A stretch of DNA of 64,000 bases, from contig JBDOQK010000062.1 in NCBI GenBank assembly GCA_040437565.1, positions 62,001-126,000 of the forward strand, in the 5' to 3' direction. Below the pieces are notes generated by a model, which saw nothing but the letters and a program-made list of their open reading frames with translations, was not told the DNA's origin and made no database searches. This stretch comes from Albugo candida. Taxonomy: Eukaryota. Below, one piece after another: positions 6,197-64,000 of this stretch (position 1 is its first letter; each line of letters opens with the position of its first letter). A program made the position numbers and the translations under genes.

Positions 6197-8818
6197 TCAC
6201 ATAGGGACGATTTTATGCGTACCGGTATGACTTGACATCACCCACGTGTCAGATAATGTCGTGGGACGGTACCGGAACGCATTCACAACACCCAACAAGT
6301 GTACCGCTTTCTCGGACGCTTTGACCATGATAGAAGCGCTTCTATCCGTTTTTGGAGGTGGACTTGCGGCACGCACACTTGGACCCTGGACTCTATCGTT
6401 TCTATAATATAATATTTGGAGTTGAGTTAGCCATTCGACAGTTTGTTTGATGGTTTCTTTACATAGAGCCTCTGCATATATAATTTCATTCTTGAAGAGC
6501 ATATTTTCAGCAAGTTGTTGCGCTTTTCTGATAAATTCTTCATAACCCATCTCTTTACCCTCACTACATTCACAAGCTGCTTGCACTGTAACCCACATCA
6601 CGTCAAGTAGTGGCCATAAAAACGATAGATTGAACTGCACAAGACGGCATCGTTTCCAAGCACTCCAATCGATCGAGTATACCTTAGATGCCTCTGTACT
6701 TAATATACTCACACATTCAAGCCTTGCAAGCAATGTCTCCACTTCAGGTATACAGATTTTCGGATTGGGATGATAGACAAGCTGGCTTAAAAACCGCAAT
6801 AGAAATTGAGTCGTTGGTAGTAGTTCTACATGATGAATGGCAGTCGTGTTTGTACTCCAAATTCCGTTCCTAACATTTGCGCGGAAAGAGTGGATGGCTC
6901 CAAATACAGCCATTTGAGGTACAAAGTGGTGTGCAAGTTGATTCCGATAATAATCGATCTCTAAAATGTGGGATGGCGGCATTCCTGATGGCAAGAAACA
7001 GATTTTAGTGCCGTGAATGGGCAAATCTAGTATTGATACTGCAGGCTTCCATATTTTATGCAAGTCATCCGAGAGGTGTGTTGTTGGAATGTGTCGAAGA
7101 TTGAGTTCCTTTATTAACCAATCGATATACGCTTCTAATACATCACAACTCATAGAAGAACGTTTCCACAGCAAAATAGACGCGATAATAGAGGTACTTG
7201 TGACAGTGCAAAGTTGTTGTAACCGACATCCAATGATATCTGCGACGTTATCGACTTTATCTTGAGCTTGCAAAGCGACACTCTTTCCGAAACGAAGGTA
7301 CGCGCGCCCGCAATTTGTAGAGAACAAGTTCCTAACCGATCGAAACAAGTGATACAAACTCTCTCTCTGCTTTTTCTTCCCAAGTCGTTGATTGGCGTAT
7401 TCTTTCACTTCCAAAATACGGTCATAATCAAGTGAAATAGGCACAAGCCAAATTGTTTTGGGCTTTTCCTGATTTCGAGGAAGTCGTACGTAATCGTGGA
7501 GTAATGACAAAAAACCCATTTTGAGCTGACTCACTCGACCCACACGAGACCGACCACCTTCCAAAAACACTTCGAGGGGGTTGTTATCGTCTACGAGCTC
7601 ATGAACGTAGGCTGATAAAATGCATTTATATAGCACATCATTTCCCCAGCTCCGGCGCATGAAGAAGCTGCCATTAGCACGCAGAAAAGTTCCAACAATA
7701 GGAAGGTCCATGTTGTCTCCGGCCGCTATACGAGGAATGGGAAGACCATATGCGAAACAGAGATAGCTGATTATCAGATAATCCAGATGCGTTTTGTGAG
7801 TTGGAATGTAAATCATTCCGAAATGGCATCCTTCCTTCTTCGCTTGAGCAATCAAAGCATGGATACTTTGGATTCCAACGATATCAACGTCAATGCCTTG
7901 GAATAAGACACGCCAGAGTTTGGATAAAAGCCAGCCGAAAAATCGCACTGCAGGGAAATACAAATTGGAATGCAGTTTTGCCAGTACTATTCGGATGGAT
8001 TGGGTTTCGCGGTCCAGGACCGATTGAGATGTTCGTAACCGGTTTAGTACATTCCGACAATGTGTGTTGGAACTCAAAGATGGTCGCTCTTGCAGATTTT
8101 GATTGCATCTGGAGCACATACTGAAGATAATATCGAAGCAATTGCGATGGAAGAATTTTTTATTTGATTGTTCGACGACAGTCTGCTTGACCACGTGGTC
8201 CCAGAAACAACGTTCTTTGACAGTTGCCAGTAGCCATGATCTATTCACTATGTTCACGAAACGAGGTGTGCTGTATTCAACAGCTTGGTGGGCTCGAGTC
8301 TGCGCTGTATGTCGGAGAATGTTCAATCGATCTGAGCCAGAAGCATGGCATGTCTCGTCTGTAAATAAGGTTGGACACGCTATTTTGGGAAAAATGGGTG
8401 GTCGACCTAAATGGTGTCTTGACCACAAAAAATGGTTATTGCTGGACTTTGCTTTTAGTAAATGAACGGTACTTTGTCGATTCGAATCACCGCGATTGAC
8501 TTCTACATCAGTAACTTCAACTGCATTGGGCCACGTGGTTGGCCATATCGTCTCGTTTTGTTTTCTATCTGATCTCGCACATTTTTGCCGACGAGATAAT
8601 GTAAACTTATTGAAATTTGCGTAATCTTTGCGCTTAGGTATCCGAAAGGTTCTCTCGCTATCGTTCAAGTACTCTGTCTGATTGGGATGTATACCACCAC
8701 GGCAGTGTCGATATGTGGTTGTTTTTTTGCCCTTGATTTTTTTCCGGGTTGAAACACGTTTGCTGTCAGCGTGTGCAATAGAACTTCTAACCGGAATTTG
8801 GCTACTTTTGTCAGGCAT
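6197..8818 (-). CDS. Glycerol-3-phosphate/DHAP acyltransferase (PlsB/GPAT family)
   Basis: 873-aa ORF with acyltransferase blocks PTHKTHLDY (HX4D), GSFFMRR, FLEGGRSRVG and VPISLDYD. Confidence 0.88.
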   Translation of the reverse strand: MPDKSSQIPVRSSIAHADSKRVSTRKKIKGKKTTTYRHCRGGIHPNQTEYLNDSERTFRIPKRKDYANFNKFTLSRRQKCARSDRKQNETIWPTTWPNAVEVTDVEVNRGDSNRQSTVHLLKAKSSNNHFLWSRHHLGRPPIFPKIACPTLFTDETCHASGSDRLNILRHTAQTRAHQAVEYSTPRFVNIVNRSWLLATVKERCFWDHVVKQTVVEQSNKKFFHRNCFDIIFSMCSRCNQNLQERPSLSSNTHCRNVLNRLRTSQSVLDRETQSIRIVLAKLHSNLYFPAVRFFGWLLSKLWRVLFQGIDVDIVGIQSIHALIAQAKKEGCHFGMIYIPTHKTHLDYLIISYLCFAYGLPIPRIAAGDNMDLPIVGTFLRANGSFFMRRSWGNDVLYKCILSAYVHELVDDNNPLEVFLEGGRSRVGRVSQLKMGFLSLLHDYVRLPRNQEKPKTIWLVPISLDYDRILEVKEYANQRLGKKKQRESLYHLFRSVRNLFSTNCGRAYLRFGKSVALQAQDKVDNVADIIGCRLQQLCTVTSTSIIASILLWKRSSMSCDVLEAYIDWLIKELNLRHIPTTHLSDDLHKIWKPAVSILDLPIHGTKICFLPSGMPPSHILEIDYYRNQLAHHFVPQMAVFGAIHSFRANVRNGIWSTNTTAIHHVELLPTTQFLLRFLSQLVYHPNPKICIPEVETLLARLECVSILSTEASKVYSIDWSAWKRCRLVQFNLSFLWPLLDVMWVTVQAACECSEGKEMGYEEFIRKAQQLAENMLFKNEIIYAEALCKETIKQTVEWLTQLQILYYRNDRVQGPSVRAASPPPKTDRSASIMVKASEKAVHLLGVVNAFRYRPTTLSDTWVMSSHTGTHKIVPM

Positions 8819-9148
8819 TTGAGATCAGCTCTCCAACCTTGAACAGCGGCTTGTATTTTGGATTATATTTGTGACAACCGTCCAAGCTTGTATTGTGGAT
8901 GTATCAGTACTATAATTTTTGCGACTCGTAATCGAGGCAATACGGTGATCAGACATACTACTATTGTGGGAAACATTGCAAAAGGTAATACGCCAGAGCA
9001 AAAGTGGATCTTGCCCTATCGATATAATGTCTGAAAGGTGAAATCAATTGCGGCTTCCTCAATCGACCAGTTGCATGTTTGTATGTTTGTGTACAACTGA
9101 CTGATTTCTGATCACAATCGAACAAACAAAAAGTATACACACGCATCC

Positions 9149-11498
9149 ATGCAGGCGACACGATGTCAAACATGTGAGCATCCCACACGCAGCGAAATAC
9201 CCTTTTGTGCTGCTTTTATATCTTATTCCACGTGCAAGACCAATTTATCCTGGAAGGTTCTGGTACGTATGCTTAATCTTTGACCGCTTGCAACTCGCAA
9301 ACAGCAAACTTTCGATAGGATGAAGTTGCACGGCAATCGTACATGCGGATAATTTCTTCGCCTCCGACAACCATGGTGTCTCACGAGCTGTGTGCACAAT
9401 CCATCCGGCATATACAATGCGCGCGGTACTTTAGTGTCTGTGAGCTCGGTACTTCTCAGCTTCTGTGTCGGTCGGATTGTCAGAATGTAAGCACATGATG
9501 TTAATGAGGTTATGTTATGCTTAAGGTTATTCGCTTTTATAGTCAATAGCAGCCAATTGTACCTCCGACTCTGCTGATGCATTGCATTCGAATGCCACCA
9601 AGTGGAACACGTCCTTGGAACATTACGTGTGTGGAAATGATATACATCATGTTGGTGGGATCGTAGCTCCAGGTAAATGCTTCAAGTTAGCGTATAACGG
9701 CCCAGAACGAAGCGCCTGGGTACTTGGCTTTTCAATCGCTATCATATTCTCATTTCTCGCCAGGTACGATCACCAACTCTTCAATTATCTCTGAAAGTTG
9801 TATGTAATCTTGAATGCTAGTGTGGGTATTAATTTACAAAAAAAAGCTCTCAAGCAAAATGAGCTTAGTGCTAACGAACACGAACAGGATCCTCTGCCAG
9901 TTTATCGACTACCTCTCTGGATCGTTGGCTTCGTGTTGATCGTAGCTGGATCGATCCTAGATTTTGTGGCGTTCGGCCTGGCACCTCAGAGTCTATTGGC
10001 ACCGCTAGCGGCATTGACACTTGTGTGGAATATGGTAACTTATCTCTGCTACCTAACCGTCTTCTTTCTCATATTACCAACTCAGATGCTAGCACCATGT
10101 TTCAATAAAGAAAAACTCGAATGCAAAGACATTGTTGCAACACTCGTTATTTTCGCTGGCGCAACTTTGGCTGTGGTATTTGCATCACACACAACACCAT
10201 CTTATACCCTCACGATGCTTTTGACACTTTACGAAAACGTTCTCACATGTGAGGTGTTTTTTATGTCTCTCCTCATGTACTTATATCGTTCGTCATTTAG
10301 GTGTTTACTTTGCATTTGTAATTGTTTGCATCGTACTCCATTATGGAATGATCAAAGTGGTGGAAACATGCCACCTCAATACTCGACAGCATCATATGAT
10401 TGAGTTTGGGAGTCTAGCATTTTGGACACGAGTCCGTATGATCGGATACGCTGGGTATATCACACCTCAATGCGTGATTATTTGAGTGATCTCACATCCT
10501 CTTTGTAGTTTGGCTGGGACGCTTGGTGGGCAATCAGTACTCTTTGCGAAATCGTGCGCAGAGTTACTCAAGTCGAGTATGAGTGGGGACAGCCCCTTCA
10601 AACATTTTGAGACCTATGCGTTCATCGTCGCCTTATCATTCTGTCTTTTATTTCAAGTAGGCACTCGATTTTGCAATTGGTGAATTTTTCTTCATATGTT
10701 TTGTAGGTTCACTTTTTGAATTGTGGTTTACTTCATTTTGATGCGTTGTTGATGGTACCGGTGTACCAGGCGTACTGGATTGTGAGTAGTGTGCTGGGTG
10801 GAGCGATTTATTTTCAAGAAATTCGTAGTTTCTCAGTCGTGCAAGCGGCTTGTTTTGTTATTGGTATTACAACGACCATCGCAGGTGTTATTTTATTATC
10901 TCAACGAAAAATTGTACCGGAGTTGACCCGGAAAAAGTCTGGGACGACGCATCGAGAAATGTCCGCCGTCAAAAGCAACATATCTAACCACTCACTAAGT
11001 TCGGGCTCGAGTGACGATCGCAGTGACCGACCAAGTCGAGTATTGCCTTCATCAGCAGTCACAGAAGGCGGTGCCACGAGTGATCAACATGAGGAAATCG
11101 ACCGACTGAGGTACAAGGAGTGTCTAACGAGGGATGCAGAAGTTGAGGAGAGTAAAGCTTACGAGAGTGCGGAAGGTGTTTCCTTTACTGAGACGCATGA
11201 TGCAAGTCGAGTCAGTCGTCAAGCGATTGAAAATTATTTCGATATGTCTGCTGGCACTTGTATCACAGAACTTTTGGGTGAATTGGGTCTGGCGAGAGCA
11301 AGCCATGTCCCGTTGCATTTGCGTCGGTCTCAAACTCGGACTCCGCATCAAACGGTCGATGATATTGAAGTAGGTCTGCCAGCCTCAAGGAAAAATCCTA
11401 GAAATCCGCCGCCTAAAAGACGATCAATTACCTTTACAGCATTCCATCGGGGTAAACAATTCAGCGAAAACTCGCAAGGGAAACAAGATTCAAGCTGA
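9149..11498 (+). CDS. NIPA-family (DMT) Mg2+ transporter with N-terminal Frizzled-like cysteine-rich domain, multi-exon
   Basis: NIPA motifs GINLQKKA, DFVAFGLAPQSLLAPL, MNCGLLHFDALLMVPVY and GAIYFQE. Upstream exons 9149-9262, 9319-9486 and 9543-9763 join in frame through GT-AG introns. Confidence 0.8.
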
Positions 11499-12018
11499 TG
11501 TATTTCAACCAATACAAGCTGTGCCATTATTGTATATTGAATCTGTAACAGGAGTTCAGTGGACTTTGCCTAGTTCTCGGTTGATGTACGTCGAGACTTT
11601 ATAATTATAGCATAGGAATATAAACTTTGAAATGATTCCAGAAGGTGATGGAACACATCACATGTAAATTCTCGATCTCGCGTCCGGACCAGAAAAAGCG
11701 TTTCGGGTCTTTATTTATTTGAGCGCTTGTTCTTTCTGATCAGGGAAAATAACCCAAAACGCTATTCCGCACCTTAATCGCAGAAACCATAAAAGGTGAG
11801 AGGATTACCGGCACTCAAGTTTATTTTCTCTTAAAATCCGACAAAAGAGACATATTGAACTTTAAGCATTGCCTTTCTTGTTACTTTGGCACACTTCGTG
11901 GAGCCCCTGTATCACGCAACTAAGCTTTGATGGCCGGTAAGAAAAGCACGACATGTCTATAGCAATCATATTTTCAAGTATTTTATTATTGAGATATTAC
12001 AGCATATAACCGACCAGA

Positions 12019-23795: not shown

Positions 23796-25300
23796 TCAGC
23801 AAGACCCGCAACTCACACATGGTCTCGATCTCAAACACGGATGCACATTCACAATGCAATTGGAAAGTTTCCCATCACTTCCATCGCCTTTCGACGTTTG
23901 AGTATCATCGATCGAATCAAACTCATCGACCAGATCGTAATCCATCAGCTCTTCCGCCGTGCAAATTGCATCGTACTCGCTGATGCTCTCATCTTCTGTC
24001 ACGTATTCGAAATCAACACCACAGTCAATATCAAACAATCGATAAATCTCCATCGCTTGAGCTTTACGTTTCTGCAAATGTTTCTTGCGTAGACGGGTTT
24101 CGATCGTAGCGGCGTAATACTCACGAAGCGCTTGGACTCCATCAAGTGAAATTCCACCGAGAAAAGCTTTATTCATTGCCAAACGGATGAGGATATCACA
24201 TGTGCATTCGTCTCCATACACCAAACGAGATTGATGCGGCTTCAACAATGCTCCAAGGGACTCATGCGTGTACTTGAGAGCAGCATACACTTCCATGGCA
24301 TCTTCACAGAGAATAAGGTCGTGTTCGCTCAGCTTCAGCAATGTCAACGCCACTCGCAACACCACATGACCGCCTTCATAGAAAAAGACATCCCAAATTC
24401 GCATTACCATTTCAAGTGGAAGTGTGTTGATGAAAAGGCAAAGAAACCATTTCATCGCAAACGGACCGAATTCGACGCCAAGTCGTTGAAAGTGGGCATA
24501 CAAATTCGGAAGCATCTGTTCGACAAGATCCGACAGAACGAGTTGCTCGACCCGCGAACCTCGCATATTGCGCTCATGGAACTGAGGAATCAAATCTTCA
24601 ACGATCACAGCCAAAACCCAAAACGATTCCTCTTCACCCAATTGCTGTAACAACATCGCACCGATAAAATTCATGCTTTGGCAGTACCCAACACACGGAT
24701 TCCGAAGACTGTATGCTTGGAGGATGCGACGCAATTCCGCCATCGGATGGCTCGCATTATCAGTACCCAATTCTGCCGCAAATGTTCGAGGAAGATCTTT
24801 CTCAATTTCCATCACAACGCGAGGACTAAGCCACGATAACGATCGTTCGACTAAGTCTCCATATGAATCAGCCGCCGAAGCCTTTTTCTGCTGGGCCAGA
24901 GTACATTTCCACCAAATCGCACCCCGCATGGAGATTGGTATTCCAGCGCGTAGCATGAGTCTCCGCTGTCGACACCAATTGGAGTCATTCGTAACAAGCA
25001 GAAATGTCGTCAGCATCGACTTCCAAGAGGGTATTTGCGTCCGTACGTGTTTCTCATCCTCACTTTCGACCAAAGATTCCGTCTGCTTTCTCTGACAATC
25101 GATGCAATAGGATTCCTGCGGGAAAGACGAGCGATTTGATGTCCAATAAGGAATGAGAGGTTTCATATAAAGTTTTGTAGACTGTTGCCATTTGTCTATC
25201 CATTGCATCTCTTTCTGCTGCATCATTTTCTCATGAAAATCGAGCGATTCCTTTAGAATTTGCGATGGTATAGCACTGTGATTTCCTCTGATTCCATTAC
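23796..25300 (-). CDS. Rab-GAP TBC domain protein (copy before the gap, 5' end cut by the gap)
   Basis: Motifs GIPISMRGAIW, IEKDLPRTF (Arg finger), GYCQSMNF (Gln finger) and RIWDVFF. Confidence 0.85.
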
Positions 25301-25400
25301 NNNNNNNNNNNNNNNNNNNNNNNNNNNNNNNNNNNNNNNNNNNNNNNNNNNNNNNNNNNNNNNNNNNNNNNNNNNNNNNNNNNNNNNNNNNNNNNNNNNN

Positions 25401-27664
25401 GACATCGATTCAAGATCAAATTCTAAAGATACTGGAAAAGCAATGGCAGCGTTTGTTCTTTCATTGGCATCGAGATGTTCGCTACTGCTTCTTTCACATT
25501 CTACTGTACTTGGTCTACCCTGGAAATCGCATCGTACTGAGTGCACAATCGGATGAGATCATATTGGGAAGCGAGAAAGCGAGTCGCACTTTCGATTGCC
25601 CAGGTATTATTCGAACAGACGATGAATCTTCACAGCGCTGGGAGCAATATTTTGAAGGACGAATCTATCAATCGATAGTGTATCACCAAATGCTCACTCG
25701 AGAATCTCGACAACCAGACACAAAACCGAGTCGGAAGGCTGGAAGTGATCTCGACAAATCTGCAGCTTCAGCGAAATTGGGCCGACGAATGTACGACTCT
25801 AGGAAATCAAATTATCGATCGGCAATGAACGCTATATCGAAAGAAACTTGCCGAAAAGAAGCAATTGCAGTGAAGAAGCCCGTCAAACCGCCAACGCTGG
25901 AGATTCCCAATTGGCTTGCCGAAGTATCCAAAGTCTATCTCATACGTTCAGTCGAAGAATACCAAGTGATCGTAACGACTTATTATTCGTACGCAACGCA
26001 TCACTCGTACGATCAAGCGCTCCCGGTGCCCGAATTTGACACGAAATCATGAGCCCAATACGATCGGTAGTTCGAATTCCAACACTATTACCTTTTTGGC
26101 AGGTACATCTTTAAAATACATAAATCTTTTGCAGTCTTATTAGCGTTATACAATCTCGGAATCAGCAAGACCCGCAACTCACACATGGTCTCGATCTCAA
26201 ACACGGATGCACATTCACAATGCAATTGGAAAGTTTCCCATCACTTCCATCGCCTTTCGACGTTTGAGTATCATCGATCGAATCAAACTCATCGACCAGA
26301 TCGTAATCCATCAGCTCTTCCGCCGTGCAAATTGCATCGTACTCGCTGATGCTCTCATCTTCTGTCACGTATTCGAAATCAACACCACAGTCAATATCAA
26401 ACAATCGATAAATCTCCATCGCTTGAGCTTTACGTTTCTGCAAATGTTTCTTGCGTAGACGGGTTTCGATCGTAGCGGCGTAATACTCACGAAGCGCTTG
26501 GACTCCATCAAGTGAAATTCCACCGAGAAAAGCTTTATTCATTGCCAAACGGATGAGGATATCACATGTGCATTCGTCTCCATACACCAAACGAGATTGA
26601 TGCGGCTTCAACAATGCTCCAAGGGACTCATGCGTGTACTTGAGAGCAGCATACACTTCCATGGCATCTTCACAGAGAATAAGGTCGTGTTCGCTCAGCT
26701 TCAGCAATGTCAACGCCACTCGCAACACCACATGACCGCCTTCATAGAAAAAGACATCCCAAATTCGCATTACCATTTCAAGTGGAAGTGTGTTGATGAA
26801 AAGGCAAAGAAACCATTTCATCGCAAACGGACCGAATTCGACGCCAAGTCGTTGAAAGTGGGCATACAAATTCGGAAGCATCTGTTCGACAAGATCCGAC
26901 AGAACGAGTTGCTCGACCCGCGAACCTCGCATATTGCGCTCATGGAACTGAGGAATCAAATCTTCAACGATCACAGCCAAAACCCAAAACGATTCCTCTT
27001 CACCCAATTGCTGTAACAACATCGCACCGATAAAATTCATGCTTTGGCAGTACCCAACACACGGATTCCGAAGACTGTATGCTTGGAGGATGCGACGCAA
27101 TTCCGCCATCGGATGGCTCGCATTATCAGTACCCAATTCTGCCGCAAATGTTCGAGGAAGATCTTTCTCAATTTCCATCACAACGCGAGGACTAAGCCAC
27201 GATAACGATCGTTCGACTAAGTCTCCATATGAATCAGCCGCCGAAGCCTTTTTCTGCTGGGCCAGAGTACATTTCCACCAAATCGCACCCCGCATGGAGA
27301 TTGGTATTCCAGCGCGTAGCATGAGTCTCCGCTGTCGACACCAATTGGAGTCATTCGTAACAAGCAGAAATGTCGTCAGCATCGACTTCCAAGAGGGTAT
27401 TTGCGTCCGTACGTGTTTCTCATCCTCACTTTCGACCAAAGATTCCGTCTGCTTTCTCTGACAATCGATGCAATAGGATTCCTGCGGGAAAGACGAGCGA
27501 TTTGATGTCCAATAAGGAATGAGAGGTTTCATATAAAGTTTTGTAGACTGTTGCCATTTGTCTATCCATTGCATCTCTTTCTGCTGCTCATTTTCTCAGA
27601 AAATCGAGCGATTCCTTTAGAATTTGCGATGGTATAGCACTGTGATTTCCTCTGATTCCATTAC
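25401..27664. repeat. Near-identical copy of 23035-25300 across a 100-N gap (probable assembly overlap)
   Basis: By eye the sequence is identical apart from two 1-nt indels near 27587-27599. Confidence 0.9.
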
Positions 27665-62225: not shown

Positions 62226-62607
62226 GTGTACTGATACAATAAAATGTATGGGAAATTCCTCAAGCTTCCGGCAGTTGGCATCCAATCGATCGGTCGTCCA
62301 TTTTTCACAGTTGAGCGGGTTACTTAGTTACGTGGTCGGTTATGCAGTTGCGCATGTAATCTGCCAATGAACGGTCGACTTCGGGTGACTCAGTTATGAA
62401 TACGGTTATACATGTATACTTGTAACCTGCCCAATGAACGGTGACCACATCATGAGTTGTTGAGGACTGCCATCTGTACCCCTCATAACCTCCCAAACTA
62501 CGCATAACTCTGTCAGCATCTACGATGCGATCGTAATCTTTCTACTGTGTATGATTCCGAGCGCTATATGAGTCATTTTCGATTTCACTCGGCGTTTTGT
62601 GAACGGT

Positions 62608-64000
62608 ATGTCGTCTCTGTTCCAAGTGGGAAATAATGTCGAGCTATGGCGCGTCTTGATGATGCTGTCATTTCTAGTGTTTTGTGTGATCATATTGGAG
62701 CAGATTTTGCATTACCTCGAACGTCGACTGAATCATAAAGAAAAGTATAATGAGATGCTGCGAAAGGTTTATCGGGAACTGATGGTGCTGGGGCTCATTG
62801 GGCTGTCCGTCAAGCTCTTAAAGGAGATGATTCATTTTGCAGAGCACTCACTGACATTTATCGCCTTCGAGGTCGCCGATATGATGATTTTTATATTAGC
62901 ATTAGCGCTTGTATTTCAGTCACTTTGTATCTATCTCTGGCTGCGTAAGGAAGATCAACGGCTCGGGTACAACGAAGTATTGACCGCGCAAGATTTACTG
63001 GAACTCATCAAAGCAAAAAATGAGCAAAAAACTGGAACTAAATTACCCGGTGGAAAGTCATGGTGGCCTTGCGGAAAAAAGCCTCGAGTCGTCACTGAGT
63101 CACAATTAACAGAAATAGTGGAAATGCGGACATTACGCCATTTTTTCCTGACAACGTATCAACTTCCGCAGATTTTCCCGTTTTCCAGCTATCTCAAACA
63201 CGCTCAAGATAACAAGATCGCATTTATGATTGATGTAGACGTATCGACATGGATTCTGCTGTTATTCTTGTTATTTTGTCTTGATGCCGTTGCCAAGCTC
63301 TTCCAAGATGTCAAGAAGGAATTAGAACCGGGTTCCATTCTTCGCACATTTTCGATTCTAGCGTGGTTACTGTTCATCTTTCACGTATTAGTCGCTACGT
63401 TTCTAGCCAATCTACTGAATAAAATCGTTGAAGAAGCTGGCTACGATTCAAAGAAAAAAGAAAAGGAATGGCTTGTGAATCTTGCTCAATTAGAGCGATT
63501 GCACCAAACCGACGAAACTGATGCATCCAAAGTCATTGATGTAATGCGTCATGTGGAAGAAGAGCAGGAGCGGATTGATGAAAAGGATAAAAAATACGAC
63601 TCCAAGTGTCACGACAGTGGCATTCAACTGATCTATCGATGTATACATGGTCATCATAAAATGGAAAATAGGTCCAGAAGTTGCGATGCAGACGCCGAGG
63701 ATCTCGCCCCTCGACCCAGCTTGCGTCTAGCAGGCTTCAATGTGCGTATTTGGGAGCTACTAGTTCGACTTTTGCTCATGTTTAATGGATTCTACCTGGC
63801 TCTATTCTTCGAATGTATCCTGTACCAGTTCAATGATATCAAACAATCAATCGTGATTGCGCTGGCGCTTTTCCCGCTACCACTACTGATAAATATGGTT
63901 TTCCTTCAGCCTCGAATTTTCCGCAACTTCATGTTCGTGTCCAGCGTATTCTCCGTGGACGTCTCAGCTTTAAGCGAGACAATTGCTCAATTTACAGCCA
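62608..64000 (+). CDS. MLO-like multi-pass membrane protein (3'-partial, absent from the ORF track)
   Basis: Frame is open from ATG 62608 to the window end. MLO-type motifs LEQILHYL, KVYRELMVLGLIG, IFILA, LRHFF...FPFSSYL...W and LLLMFNGFYLALFF. Confidence 0.8.
   Translation, partial: MSSLFQVGNNVELWRVLMMLSFLVFCVIILEQILHYLERRLNHKEKYNEMLRKVYRELMVLGLIGLSVKLLKEMIHFAEHSLTFIAFEVADMMIFILALALVFQSLCIYLWLRKEDQRLGYNEVLTAQDLLELIKAKNEQKTGTKLPGGKSWWPCGKKPRVVTESQLTEIVEMRTLRHFFLTTYQLPQIFPFSSYLKHAQDNKIAFMIDVDVSTWILLLFLLFCLDAVAKLFQDVKKELEPGSILRTFSILAWLLFIFHVLVATFLANLLNKIVEEAGYDSKKKEKEWLVNLAQLERLHQTDETDASKVIDVMRHVEEEQERIDEKDKKYDSKCHDSGIQLIYRCIHGHHKMENRSRSCDADAEDLAPRPSLRLAGFNVRIWELLVRLLLMFNGFYLALFFECILYQFNDIKQSIVIALALFPLPLLINMVFLQPRIFRNFMFVSSVFSVDVSALSETIAQFTA

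What the first reader, a model, noticed from the sequence alone, without database searches (positions are those of the whole stretch)
9149..9763. Frizzled-like cysteine-rich ectodomain fused to a NIPA Mg2+ transporter
Seen in sequence: three exons upstream of the NIPA core (the first two absent from the ORF track) splice in frame through phase-0 GT-AG introns at 9263-9318 and 9487-9542. They give CQTCEHPTRSEIPFCAAFISYSTC...ELCAQSIRHIQCARYFSVCELGTSQLLCRSDCQNSIAANC...VC...KC, 12 Cys in all, directly before TM1. Established knowledge: this spacing resembles the Frizzled/Smoothened CRD (CEP.TIPLC..I.Y; C...L..FLC..Y.P.C......PCRSLC), a lipid/sterol-binding fold, while characterised NIPA proteins have short N-termini. 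Inference: a ligand-gated transporter or transceptor, which would be of interest in a lineage that may depend on host sterols. No clear signal peptide was found.
Basis: partly seen in the sequence, partly recalled or inferred. Interest (0 to 1): 0.8.

Follow-up and report, generated by a model that had tools for sequence, protein, structure and literature searches.

The report
Frizzled-type domain on an oomycete NIPA transporter
This Albugo candida gene really does encode a Frizzled-type cysteine-rich domain joined to a NIPA membrane transporter, an arrangement shared by other oomycetes and never studied, but nothing yet shows that the domain binds sterols or gates transport.

Summary
Spliced RNA-derived contigs skip exactly the two proposed introns (9263-9318, 9487-9542) and five more. 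This gives one 657-aa protein: a 152-aa N-terminal domain with 12 Cys, then TM1 and a NIPA (PF05653) core, then a long C-terminal tail.

The N-terminal domain is a divergent Frizzled-type CRD:
- Pfam Fz hits are sub-threshold but recur across the family.
- All 21 PDB profile hits are Fz-type CRDs.
- An AlphaFold model (pLDDT 79.8) is closest to MuSK and ROR CRDs (Z 8.6-9.6). The top 12 of 48,161 chains are all Fz-type CRDs.

The fusion is not peculiar to Albugo. Globisporangium, Pythium and unnamed relatives have it, and UniProt already calls the G. ultimum orthologue "FZ domain-containing protein".

Those relatives carry a signal peptide. Both Albugo proteins start 5 residues before the first Cys and have none.

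A fixed 12-residue linker ties the CRD to TM1, which is part of the lid of the outward cavity in human NIPA2. Glu70, a substrate-site residue of human NIPA2, is Ser here.

The ligand-gated or sterol idea is untested. The nearest CRDs (ROR2) lack the lipid pocket.

Verdict: a real, conserved, uncharacterised variant of a known transporter, of moderate interest.

The parts
9098..9100 (+). In-frame TGA upstream of the start codon. It closes the reading frame, so ATG 9149 is the first possible AUG start.
   Evidence: Sequence. The stop-to-stop ORF 9101..9283 is.
9149..9262 (+). Exon 1: Met1-Leu38, with Cys6, 9, 20 and 29 (start of the CRD). It has no signal-peptide-like leader.
   Evidence: The RNA contig is collinear over 8400-9261 and spliced at 9262|9319. 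The A. laibachii protein has the same N-terminus.
9263..9318 (+). Intron 1 (56 nt, GT..AG, phase 0).
   Evidence: Skipped in X1 and X4 contigs (table 5). Fragments P0009 and P0014 from other taxa run into non-homologous sequence at the same place, so the intron position looks conserved.
9319..9486 (+). Exon 2: Asp39-Asn94, with Cys63, 72, 79, 88 and 92 (core of the CRD).
   Evidence: On its own it hits Pfam Fz PF01392 at E 2.7e-4, 21.9 bits, profile positions 38-80 of 110.
9487..9542 (+). Intron 2 (56 nt, GT..AG, phase 0).
   Evidence: Skipped in X1 and X4 contigs.
9543..9763 (+). Exon 3: end of the CRD (Cys100, 124, 140), the 12-residue linker, and the start of TM1 (Trp153 at 9717-9719).
   Evidence: The linker is 12 residues in 10 of 10 family members that span it. 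The Pfam NIPA match starts at residue 98 of P0002, which is residue 154 of the full model.
9764..9820 (+). Intron 3 (57 nt, GT..AG, phase 2).
   Evidence: Skipped in X1 and X6 contigs.
9821..11498 (+). Exons 4-8: 9821-10034, 10086-10248, 10301-10454, 10509-10656 and 10707-11498, including the stop codon. They encode the NIPA transporter core and a C-terminal tail of about 195 residues with conserved motifs.
   Evidence: Introns 4-7 are skipped in X1, with partial support in X4 and X6. Pfam PF05653 scores 121.7 bits. The match to human NIPA2 chain 9z7s_B has E 2e-15. The translation is identical to P0002 from residue 57.

Best explanation
Shown:
- The gene (9149-11498, + strand, 8 exons) encodes a 657-aa membrane protein of Albugo candida.
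- An N-terminal Frizzled-type cysteine-rich domain (about 150 residues, 12 conserved Cys) is joined to TM1 of a NIPA-family (DMT superfamily) transporter by a linker of invariant length, 12 residues.
- A long C-terminal tail with conserved motifs follows the transporter core.
- The fusion is an old oomycete family, not an Albugo novelty.

Inferred from the human NIPA2 structure (9 TM helices, N-terminus outside, C-terminus inside; the upper parts of helices 1-2 plus helix 3 form a hinged lid over the outward-facing cavity):
- The CRD sits on the extracytosolic face, directly above the substrate cavity, and is held to the lid helix.
- Its most likely role is therefore a built-in extracellular cap. 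The cap would stabilise the transporter or control opening of the cavity, possibly in response to a bound ligand. The CRD of FAM155A does something comparable in trans on the NALCN channel.
- The substrate is probably a divalent cation and/or a nucleotide-like solute, by homology. Specificity may differ from NIPA2, because the site-1 Glu70 of NIPA2 is Ser here, with an Asp one turn later.

Albugo-specific point: the ancestral signal peptide is missing. If the CRD is exported, TM1 must act as a reverse signal-anchor.
For: Gene structure and expression: spliced contigs support all 7 introns, and the model is identical to P0002 from residue 57.

Fz-type CRD, sequence evidence:
- Pfam Fz scores E 6e-5, 24.0 bits, over residues 16-110 (profile positions 5-95 of 110) in P0001. 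Exon 2 alone scores E 2.7e-4.
- 8 of 10 further family members give sub-threshold Fz hits, 14.4-28.9 bits.
- 21 of 21 PDB hits of the family profile are Ror2, Smoothened or Frizzled CRDs. The best is 7me4_A at E 0.0042, with six Cys aligned to six Cys.

Fz-type CRD, structure evidence:
- The AF2 model has pLDDT 79.8, pTM 0.79 and four helices.
- VIA-align gives MuSK Z 9.6 (rmsd 3.1 over 110 residues), Nrk 8.9 and ROR2 8.6.
- In the Foldseek-independent search of 48,161 chains the top 12 rows are all Fz-type CRDs. Only 4 chains reach Z>=8.
- The ESM Atlas leads point the same way.

NIPA core: PF05653 scores 119-122 bits against a cutoff of 26.2. Human NIPA2 chains match at E 2e-15.

Topology and lid: PMC13500462, passages seen.

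Conserved fusion:
- 5 of the 11 true hits extend into the NIPA region, and a sixth family member, P0016, is a full-length orthologue from P0004's cluster.
- The linker is exactly 12 residues in 10 of 10.
- The family's Atlas cluster has a 660-aa representative and 104 members, mostly Oomycota.

Selection in Albugo: all 12 Cys are kept in both species. The CRD is 74.5% identical between them.

FAM155A CRD as a cap on NALCN: PMC7712781, passages seen. Structural similarity to it is Z 5.1-5.6.
Against: - No Fz hit reaches Pfam's gathering score of 32.1 bits.
- Foldseek gave no match with E <= 0.001. The best was E 0.11 with TM 0.51.
- Z values of 8.6-9.6 are only modestly above what unrelated helical models can reach, according to the tool's own note.
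- The cap or gating role is inference only. The full-length model was too poor (pLDDT 46.1, pTM 0.30) to show how the CRD sits on the transporter.
- Both Albugo proteins lack a signal peptide, so export of a 152-residue domain is not assured.
- The CRD evolves faster than the core: 74.5% against 95.2% identity.
- NIPA2's Glu70, reported as necessary for transport, is not conserved. Even the transporter activity is therefore unproven.
- Introns 1 and 2 are supported by runs of one study only.
Confidence: 0.8

Rival explanations
1. The CRD is a lipid- or sterol-binding sensor, as in Smoothened or Frizzled. Ligand binding gates the transporter or signals through the cytosolic tail (a transceptor), serving sterol-auxotrophic oomycetes.
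For: - The fold belongs to the Fz-CRD group, and several members of that group bind lipids. Smoothened CRD structures with cholesterol or 20(S)-hydroxycholesterol are among the matches, at Z 5.6-6.1.
- The NPC1 and NCR1 N-terminal domains appear as distant matches, Z 3.7-4.4.
- Peronosporales do not make sterols, and how they take up and sense sterols is unknown (PMC8211186, passages seen).
- The short fixed linker to a lid helix would allow coupling.
- The C-terminal tail carries conserved motifs.
Against: - No pocket, ligand or binding residue was tested, because no model coordinates were available.
- The closest CRDs are MuSK and ROR. They score more than 2.5 Z units above Smoothened.
- The ROR2 CRD is reported to lack the hydrophobic lipid pocket (PMC11219042, abstract seen).
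- PMC8211186 does not mention Albugo (0 occurrences).
Confidence: 0.15
2. The CRD is a passive folding, trafficking or oligomerisation module with no regulatory or ligand role. This would resemble the need for the FAM155/NLF-1 family for membrane localisation of NALCN, and the impaired secretion caused by ROR2 CRD mutations.
For: - NLF-1, the C. elegans homologue of FAM155, is required for membrane localisation of NALCN (PMC7712781, introduction passage seen).
- ROR2 CRD mutations impair secretion (PMC11219042, abstract seen).
- NIPA2 is a dimer.
- The CRD is structurally nearest to the MuSK and ROR type.
Against: - Ordinary NIPA proteins fold and reach their membrane without such a domain.
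- The linker of exactly 12 residues (10 of 10) and the invariant Cys-x4-Tyr-x-Gly motif before TM1 suggest tight mechanical coupling rather than a loose accessory.
- Nothing here separates this rival from the cap or gate reading.
Confidence: 0.25
3. In Albugo the domain is a relic. After loss of the signal peptide it stays in the cytosol, cannot form disulfides and no longer functions. Only the NIPA core matters.
For: - Both Albugo proteins have a 5-residue leader. All 10 of 10 other family members that include the first Cys cluster have a hydrophobic leader of 26-44 residues.
- No convincing upstream exon was found. Six frame-compatible combinations exist, and the best has a hydrophobicity of only 1.26.
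- The CRD is less conserved between the two Albugo species than the core (74.5% against 95.2%).
Against: - All 12 Cys, the reading frame and both introns are intact in two Albugo species.
- The exons are present in an abundant spliced transcript.
- The CRD is more conserved than the C-terminal tail (65.3%).
- Four N-glycosylation sequons lie in the domain.
- An unfolded Cys-rich domain could still be translocated by an N-out TM1 (inference).
Confidence: 0.1
4. Annotation artefact. Exons 1-2 belong to another transcript, or are non-coding 5' UTR, and the protein starts at Met57 as in the public A. candida model.
For: - The NCBI model P0002 starts at Met57.
- The X1 contig merges with the neighbouring gene's transcript, so the transcript start is not defined.
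Against: - Spliced contigs join exons 1, 2 and 3 in frame in two runs.
- The X4 contig reaches 9161, upstream of Cys6.
- Exon 1 residues and their four Cys are conserved in A. laibachii and in 30-36% identical relatives.
- A start at Met57 would remove 4 of the 12 conserved Cys.
Confidence: 0.03

Closest known systems
Human NIPA2 (PDB 9z6n, 9z7r, 9z7s, 9z7t; PMC13500462)
   Same: - Same family: PF05653 at 119-122 bits and phmmer E 2e-15 over residues 99-432 of P0002.
- 9-TM DMT-type transporter with N-terminus out and C-terminus in.
- Site residues Q232, S192 and Y252 are identical, and F256 is replaced by another aromatic residue, Trp.
   Different: - NIPA2 has about 11 residues before TM1. 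Here there are 152, folded as a CRD.
- Glu70 is replaced by Ser, with Asp at the position of N73.
- Y253 is Gln, F28 is Ile, G89 is Ala and S92 is Thr.
- A conserved C-terminal tail of about 195 residues is present.
- Transport was not tested.
Fz-like CRDs of MuSK and ROR receptor kinases (3hkl, 9lgg, 9fse, 7me4)
   Same: - Best structural matches: Z 9.6, 9.0, 8.6 and 8.9 over 110-117 residues.
- Best sequence-profile match: Ror2/Nrk at E 0.0042, with six aligned Cys.
   Different: - 14-17% identity.
- Those CRDs sit in single-pass receptor kinases next to Ig or Kringle domains, not on a transporter.
- This family has 12 conserved Cys rather than 10. The figure of 10 is from the abstract of PMC6938638 in the listing.
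Frizzled and Smoothened CRDs (class F GPCRs), and sFRPs
   Same: - Same fold group: FZD4 Z 7.3-7.7, sFRP3 6.8, SMO 5.7-6.3.
- The domain lies N-terminal to a multi-pass membrane protein.
- Pfam Fz is the only CRD family hit.
   Different: - No Frizzled 7TM domain. No Frizzled 7TM family was listed at E <= 1.
- The membrane part is a DMT transporter.
- The linker is 12 residues.
- Lipid or Wnt binding was not tested.
FAM155A (NLF-1, Mid1) CRD on the NALCN (Cch1) channel
   Same: A Fz-related CRD sitting on the extracellular face of an ion-conducting membrane protein (PMC7712781). Structural similarity is Z 5.1-5.6.
   Different: - There the CRD is a separate subunit acting in trans on a four-domain channel. 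Here it is fused in cis to a transporter.
- The similarity is weaker than to MuSK and ROR.
- This is a functional analogy only.
Globisporangium ultimum K3WIL3, 'FZ domain-containing protein' (P0016); G. splendens 'Nipa protein 2, partial' (P0004, P0015)
   Same: - Orthologues with CRD, NIPA core and the same C-terminal motifs.
- 52-53% identical to P0001 overall.
   Different: - They have an N-terminal hydrophobic leader of 31-32 residues that Albugo lacks.
- They are known only as automatic database entries.

Membership tests
Fz domain (Pfam PF01392, Frizzled-type CRD) | Significant match to the family profile | tested here: inconclusive
   P0001 scores E 6e-5, 24.0 bits, covering profile positions 5-95 of 110. 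Exon 2 of the window scores E 2.7e-4, 21.9 bits. 8 of 10 relatives score 14.4-28.9 bits. All are below the curated cutoff of 32.1 bits. The family profile hits only Fz-type CRDs in the PDB (21 of 21, best E 0.0042).
Fz domain (Pfam PF01392, Frizzled-type CRD) | Ten conserved cysteines in the canonical order | tested here: met
   12 Cys columns are conserved in 6-7 of 7 CRD rows. Six of them align Cys-to-Cys with Ror2/Nrk in the HMMER alignment. The other four canonical positions are assigned only by their place in fold alignments spanning residues 5-140 and by a recalled spacing pattern. The two extra Cys (6 and 29) are specific to this family. Disulfide pairing was not checked.
Fz domain (Pfam PF01392, Frizzled-type CRD) | Mainly helical CRD fold | tested here: met
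   The AF2 model has pLDDT 79.8 and helices at 35-52, 62-76, 90-104 and 108-119. The top 34 rows and the top 12 of 48,161 chains are Fz-type CRDs (Z up to 9.6). The first unrelated chain scores Z 5.1.
Fz domain (Pfam PF01392, Frizzled-type CRD) | Extracytosolic location (secretory-pathway entry) | tested here: inconclusive
   10 of 10 non-Albugo relatives have a hydrophobic leader. The two Albugo proteins do not. The N-out topology is inferred from the human NIPA2 structure. No signal-peptide predictor was available.
Fz domain (Pfam PF01392, Frizzled-type CRD) | Hydrophobic lipid-binding groove | not testable with these tools
This groove is not a universal feature of the fold: ROR2 lacks it (PMC11219042 abstract).
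NIPA (Pfam PF05653, DMT superfamily) | Match above the curated cutoff | tested here: met
   P0002 scores 121.7 bits and P0001 119 bits against a cutoff of 26.2, covering profile positions 4-293 of 295. Human NIPA2 chains match at E 2e-15.
NIPA (Pfam PF05653, DMT superfamily) | Nine transmembrane helices | tested here: inconclusive
   The hydropathy scan gives about 7-8 separate hydrophobic segments between residues 150 and 461. The low-confidence full-length model shows 11 helices between 145 and 454. Neither count is reliable.
NIPA (Pfam PF05653, DMT superfamily) | Substrate-site residues of human NIPA2 (E70, Q232, S192; Y252, Y253, F256, F28, G89, S92) | tested here: not met
   From the pairwise HMMER alignment: 3 of 9 are identical (Q232, S192, Y252), 3 are similar (F256W, S92T, G89A) and 3 are changed (E70S, Y253Q, F28I). 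E70 is reported as necessary for transport. These residues define the NIPA2 mechanism, not the family. The protein stays in the family but may be a functional variant.
NIPA (Pfam PF05653, DMT superfamily) | Mg2+ (or nucleotide) transport | not testable with these tools
   Needs liposome or cell flux assays.
Frizzled/Smoothened class F receptors | Frizzled-type 7TM domain after the CRD | tested here: not met
   The Pfam scan of P0001 and P0002 at E <= 1 lists NIPA, Fz, EamA, Saf_2TM and DUF3040, and no Frizzled 7TM family. The protein is not a Frizzled receptor.

The most novel reading that the evidence does not exclude
Oomycetes carry a receptor-transporter. A Frizzled-type CRD that predates the animal, fungal and amoebozoan Frizzled receptors binds an extracellular, possibly host-derived, lipid or sterol. 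Through a rigid 12-residue tether to the lid helix of a NIPA/DMT transporter, it gates solute flux or signals through the conserved phosphorylatable tail. In Albugo this 150-residue disulfide domain would be exported without any signal peptide.
Probability: 0.12. Interest if true: 0.8.

Novelty: new variant of a known kind. Interest (0 to 1): 0.55.

Why it matters
- Origin of the Fz domain. Fz-type CRDs are usually discussed as parts of animal, fungal and amoebozoan receptors. The review passages read place the origin of the Frizzled family in the ancestor of opisthokonts and amoebozoans. A conserved stramenopile CRD fused to a solute transporter widens the known contexts of the fold. It suggests the fold was used as an extracellular module on transport proteins outside that group.
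- NIPA biology. This is a natural experiment: a large domain hard-wired to the lid helix of the recently solved NIPA2 mechanism, together with a changed substrate-site Glu.
- Oomycete pathogens. It is a conserved, surface-exposed, lineage-restricted membrane protein of unknown function.
- The Albugo-specific loss of the signal peptide poses a clear, testable question about membrane-protein biogenesis.
- Practical point: the public A. candida gene model is 56 residues too short.

Tried and rejected
- Whole genome: none is held for this window. No search for paralogues was possible, and no A. laibachii DNA was available for dN/dS.
- Word-indexed protein searches found only the two Albugo proteins: 2 of 2 candidates; 2 of 76; 2 of 5103. 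They did not even recover the Globisporangium orthologues, so they say nothing about distribution.
- phmmer of the single CRD against the PDB gave 0 hits at E <= 10. Only the family profile gave hits.
- Foldseek against the PDB gave 0 of 110 matches with E <= 0.001. The fold assignment rests on which families fill the top ranks and on VIA-align Z scores.
- The full-length AF2 model has pLDDT 46.1 and pTM 0.30. It cannot be used for the CRD-transporter arrangement, the TM count or the tail.
- No RNA holder is listed on record for this stretch. The runs used are labelled "RNA?" as a guess. Their spliced contigs are what shows cDNA origin.
- The transcript start could not be placed. The X1 contig runs on into the neighbouring gene. 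The X4 contigs leave 9133-9160 uncovered.
- Scan for a hidden signal-peptide exon in 8300-9148: 6 frame-compatible ATG..GT / AG combinations. The best has a 10-residue hydrophobicity of 1.26 and lies at 8462-8554, inside the neighbouring gene's region. None is convincing.
- P0006, an 857-aa repeat protein that matches only query residues 85-126 in 5 stretches, was judged spurious and left out of the alignments. P0009, P0011, P0013 and P0014 (short fragments) were left out of A1 and A2.
- In one search the rows for P0002, P0011, P0012 and P0015 were dropped from the leader count. These proteins are N-terminally truncated, and the pattern caught a later Cys cluster.
- Earlier findings of the scan: nothing found.
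- Literature: nipa / frizzled / oomycete, 15 of 190 listed; 6 terms, 15 of 799 listed; frizzled plus four oomycete genera, 12 of 3,691 listed. None of the listed papers describes an Fz-NIPA fusion. Most matching papers were not listed, so this is weak evidence that it is unpublished.
- PMC12223298 had nothing relevant.
- Disulfide geometry and pocket analysis were not possible, because no model coordinates are exposed.
Full report
**Observation**

The window is Albugo candida. The database protein P0002 ("hypothetical protein ABG067_006643 [Albugo candida]") is 100% identical to the exon-2 translation over the 68% of it that aligns.

- 9149-9262 (114 nt), 9319-9486 (168 nt) and 9543-9763 (221 nt), each bounded by GT..AG.
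- They join in frame and give 12 Cys in the first 167 residues.

Contigs of public runs laid on 8400-11800 settle the splicing:
- In run X1 one 5306-nt contig (depth 98) skips seven GT..AG introns: 9263-9318, 9487-9542, 9764-9820, 10035-10085, 10249-10300, 10455-10508 and 10657-10706.
- Run X4 (same study) skips introns 1, 2, 6 and 7.
- Run X6 (another study) skips introns 3 and 4.
- Run X5 is unspliced and looks like DNA.
- Introns 1 and 2 are thus supported by two runs of one study.

The eight exons translate to 657 residues. From residue 57 on, the translation is identical to P0002, so the public A. candida model is 56 residues short. The A. laibachii orthologue P0001 (649 aa) begins with the same exon 1 joined to exon 2 in the same way.

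TM1 begins in exon 3 (Trp153, 9717-9719) and runs into exon 4. The Cys-rich part cannot belong to a separate protein.

**What the N-terminal domain is**

Sequence evidence:
- Exon 2 alone hits Pfam Fz (PF01392) at E 2.7e-4, 21.9 bits.
- P0001 hits Fz at E 6e-5, 24.0 bits, over residues 16-110, which is profile positions 5-95 of 110.
- Both are below Pfam's cutoff of 32.1 bits. The signal recurs in 8 of 10 further family members, at 14.4-28.9 bits.
- A profile built from seven CRDs plus the three window exons (A1) was searched against all PDB sequences. It finds 21 sequences at E <= 10, and all 21 are Ror2, Smoothened or Frizzled CRDs. The best is 7me4_A at E 0.0042, with six Cys aligned to six Cys.
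- The single sequence found nothing.

Structure evidence:
- AlphaFold2 on residues 1-147 of P0001 with A1 gave pLDDT 79.8, pTM 0.79 and four helices.
- Foldseek gave no match with E <= 0.001. Ranks 1-28 are all Fz-type CRDs, led by the MuSK CRD (E 0.11, probability 0.95, TM 0.51).
- VIA-align gave MuSK Z 9.6 (rmsd 3.1 over 110 residues), MuSK 3hkl 9.0, Nrk 8.9, ROR2 8.6, FZD4 7.7, Smoothened about 6 and FAM155A 5.1-5.6.
- The Foldseek-independent search of 48,161 chains put Fz-type CRDs in all of the top 12 rows. Only 4 chains reach Z >= 8, and the first unrelated chain scores Z 5.1. Glypican, the NPC1 N-terminal domain and Juno score 3.6-4.6.
- The ESM Atlas leads agree.

I therefore read the domain as a divergent Frizzled-type CRD, closest to the MuSK and ROR kind. 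It has 12 family-conserved Cys, against the 10 said to be conserved in FZ-CRDs (PMC6938638, abstract in the listing).

It is not a Frizzled receptor: no Frizzled 7TM family was listed at E <= 1.

**The membrane part**

- PF05653 (NIPA) scores 119-122 bits against a cutoff of 26.2.
- Human NIPA2 chains (9z7s, 9z6n) match at E 2e-15, with NIPA2 residue 12 aligned to TM1.
- The 2026 NIPA2 paper (PMC13500462; abstract, outline and passages read) reports the following:
  - nine helices, an extracellular N-terminus, an intracellular C-terminus and a dimer;
  - transport of Mg2+ and nucleotides;
  - a hinged lid made of the upper parts of helices 1 and 2 plus helix 3;
  - site residues E70, Q232 and S192 (site 1) and Y252, Y253, F256, F28, G89 and S92 (site 2).
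- By the alignment, Q232, S192 and Y252 are kept. F256 is Trp, S92 is Thr and G89 is Ala. E70 is Ser (with Asp at the N73 position), Y253 is Gln and F28 is Ile.
- The Ser/Asp arrangement is shared by the whole fusion family. The substrate may therefore differ from that of NIPA2.

**Distribution**

An exhaustive phmmer search of the CRD against 1.84 billion representatives gave 12 proteins at E <= 0.001. One, P0006, is a repeat protein that I judge spurious.

Of the other 11:
- Five extend into the NIPA region with scores above Pfam's cutoff.
- Six are short fragments.

Names where given:
- Globisporangium splendens, "Nipa protein 2, partial".
- G. ultimum K3WIL3, "FZ domain-containing protein" (677 aa).
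- Pythium insidiosum hypothetical proteins.

The Atlas cluster of the G. ultimum protein has a 660-aa representative and 104 members, mostly Oomycota. The fusion is thus an old oomycete family and is already flagged automatically in UniProt. In the papers listed by three literature searches none describes it. Most matching papers were not listed.

**An Albugo peculiarity**

- All 10 non-Albugo members that include the first Cys cluster have a leader of 26-44 residues with a hydrophobic stretch (10-residue Kyte-Doolittle maximum 2.0-3.2).
- P0001 has a 5-residue leader, and the A. candida model starts the same way.
- In A. candida an in-frame TGA lies at 9098-9100 and ATG 9149 is the first AUG after it.
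- The X1 contig is collinear from 8400 to 9261.
- A scan for a hidden leader exon found nothing convincing.
- The transcript start itself is not defined. The X1 contig merges with the divergent neighbouring gene. X4 leaves 9133-9160 uncovered, and its downstream contig starts at 9161.
- Against simple decay: all 12 Cys and the frame are intact in both Albugo species. Identity between the two species is 74.5% in the CRD, 95.2% in the TM core and 65.3% in the tail.

**Mechanism**

Shown:
- The CRD is fused to TM1.
- The distance from the last Cys to the TM1 Trp is exactly 12 residues in 10 of 10 members, with an invariant Cys-x4-Tyr-x-Gly before TM1.

Inferred:
- With N-out topology, the CRD sits on the extracytosolic mouth of the transporter, tethered to a lid helix.
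- It most likely acts as a built-in cap that stabilises the transporter or controls access to the cavity.
- The nearest precedent is the FAM155A CRD, which binds on top of NALCN and reaches over the ion entrance (PMC7712781, passages read).
- The full-length model was too poor to test this (pLDDT 46.1).

The nearest solved CRDs are MuSK and ROR, and the ROR2 CRD is reported to lack the lipid pocket (PMC11219042, abstract read).

The C-terminal tail carries motifs conserved from Albugo to Globisporangium, including a basic-Ser motif (KRRSITF). This fits a regulated cytosolic tail (inference).

**Verdict**

The domain assignment is supported. The functional interpretation is speculative. This is a real, conserved and uncharacterised variant of a NIPA transporter, with an extra oddity in Albugo. 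Interest is moderate.

Noticed in passing
window 9149-9375 versus database protein P0002: The public A. candida gene model (601 aa) starts at Met57 and omits exon 1 and the first 18 codons of exon 2. That removes 4 of the 12 conserved Cys. RNA contigs and the A. laibachii orthologue support the longer 657-aa model.
   Followed up: yes
window 9098-9163: Both Albugo proteins lack the signal peptide that all 10 other family members with a complete N-terminus have. The Albugo start codon lies about where the mature N-terminus of the relatives begins.
   Followed up: partly
window 9930-9950 (TM2; GSILDF motif): Glu70 of human NIPA2, reported as needed for Mg2+ and nucleotide transport, is Ser in the whole Fz-NIPA family, with Asp three residues later. 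The substrate may differ from that of NIPA2.
   Followed up: partly
window 11180-11460 (C-terminal tail): The otherwise variable, probably disordered tail holds blocks conserved between Albugo and Globisporangium (VSRQ.I.NY.DMSA, VDDIEVG.P, KRRSITFT.F). The last looks like a basophilic-kinase phosphorylation site (recalled consensus).
   Followed up: no
window 8400-9261 and the neighbouring gene at 6200-8818 (-): The divergent neighbour is a GPAT-type acyltransferase (PF19277, PF01553). In run X1 its transcript and the Fz-NIPA transcript assemble into one contig, so RNA cover is continuous across the roughly 330-nt intergenic region. This fits overlapping 5' ends or a shared bidirectional promoter. 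Two short upstream ORFs (ATG at 9075 and 9083) would lie in the leader if transcription starts upstream of them.
   Followed up: no
P0004 (G. splendens); P0007 and P0017 (P. insidiosum): Public models of orthologues look mis-spliced. P0004 lacks the segment holding the fourth Cys. The P. insidiosum models lack the central CRD (fifth to ninth Cys) and part of the TM core. Fz is not detected in the latter two.
   Followed up: no
window 23799-25409 (-) and 26165-27595 (-), N run 25301-25400: Two RabGAP-TBC ORFs are identical at 1431 of 1432 aligned bases and flank a 100-N gap. This is probably a scaffolding duplication rather than a true tandem pair. The window has ten 100-N gaps.
   Followed up: partly
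window 62572-63999 (+): An ORF running off the window end has a weak Mlo-family match (PF03094, E 2.1e-6, 26.8 bits against a cutoff of 24). Other neighbours are ordinary: subtilase, NUDIX, Rieske, SAS-6, GH6, aminotransferase, dynein light chain.
   Followed up: no
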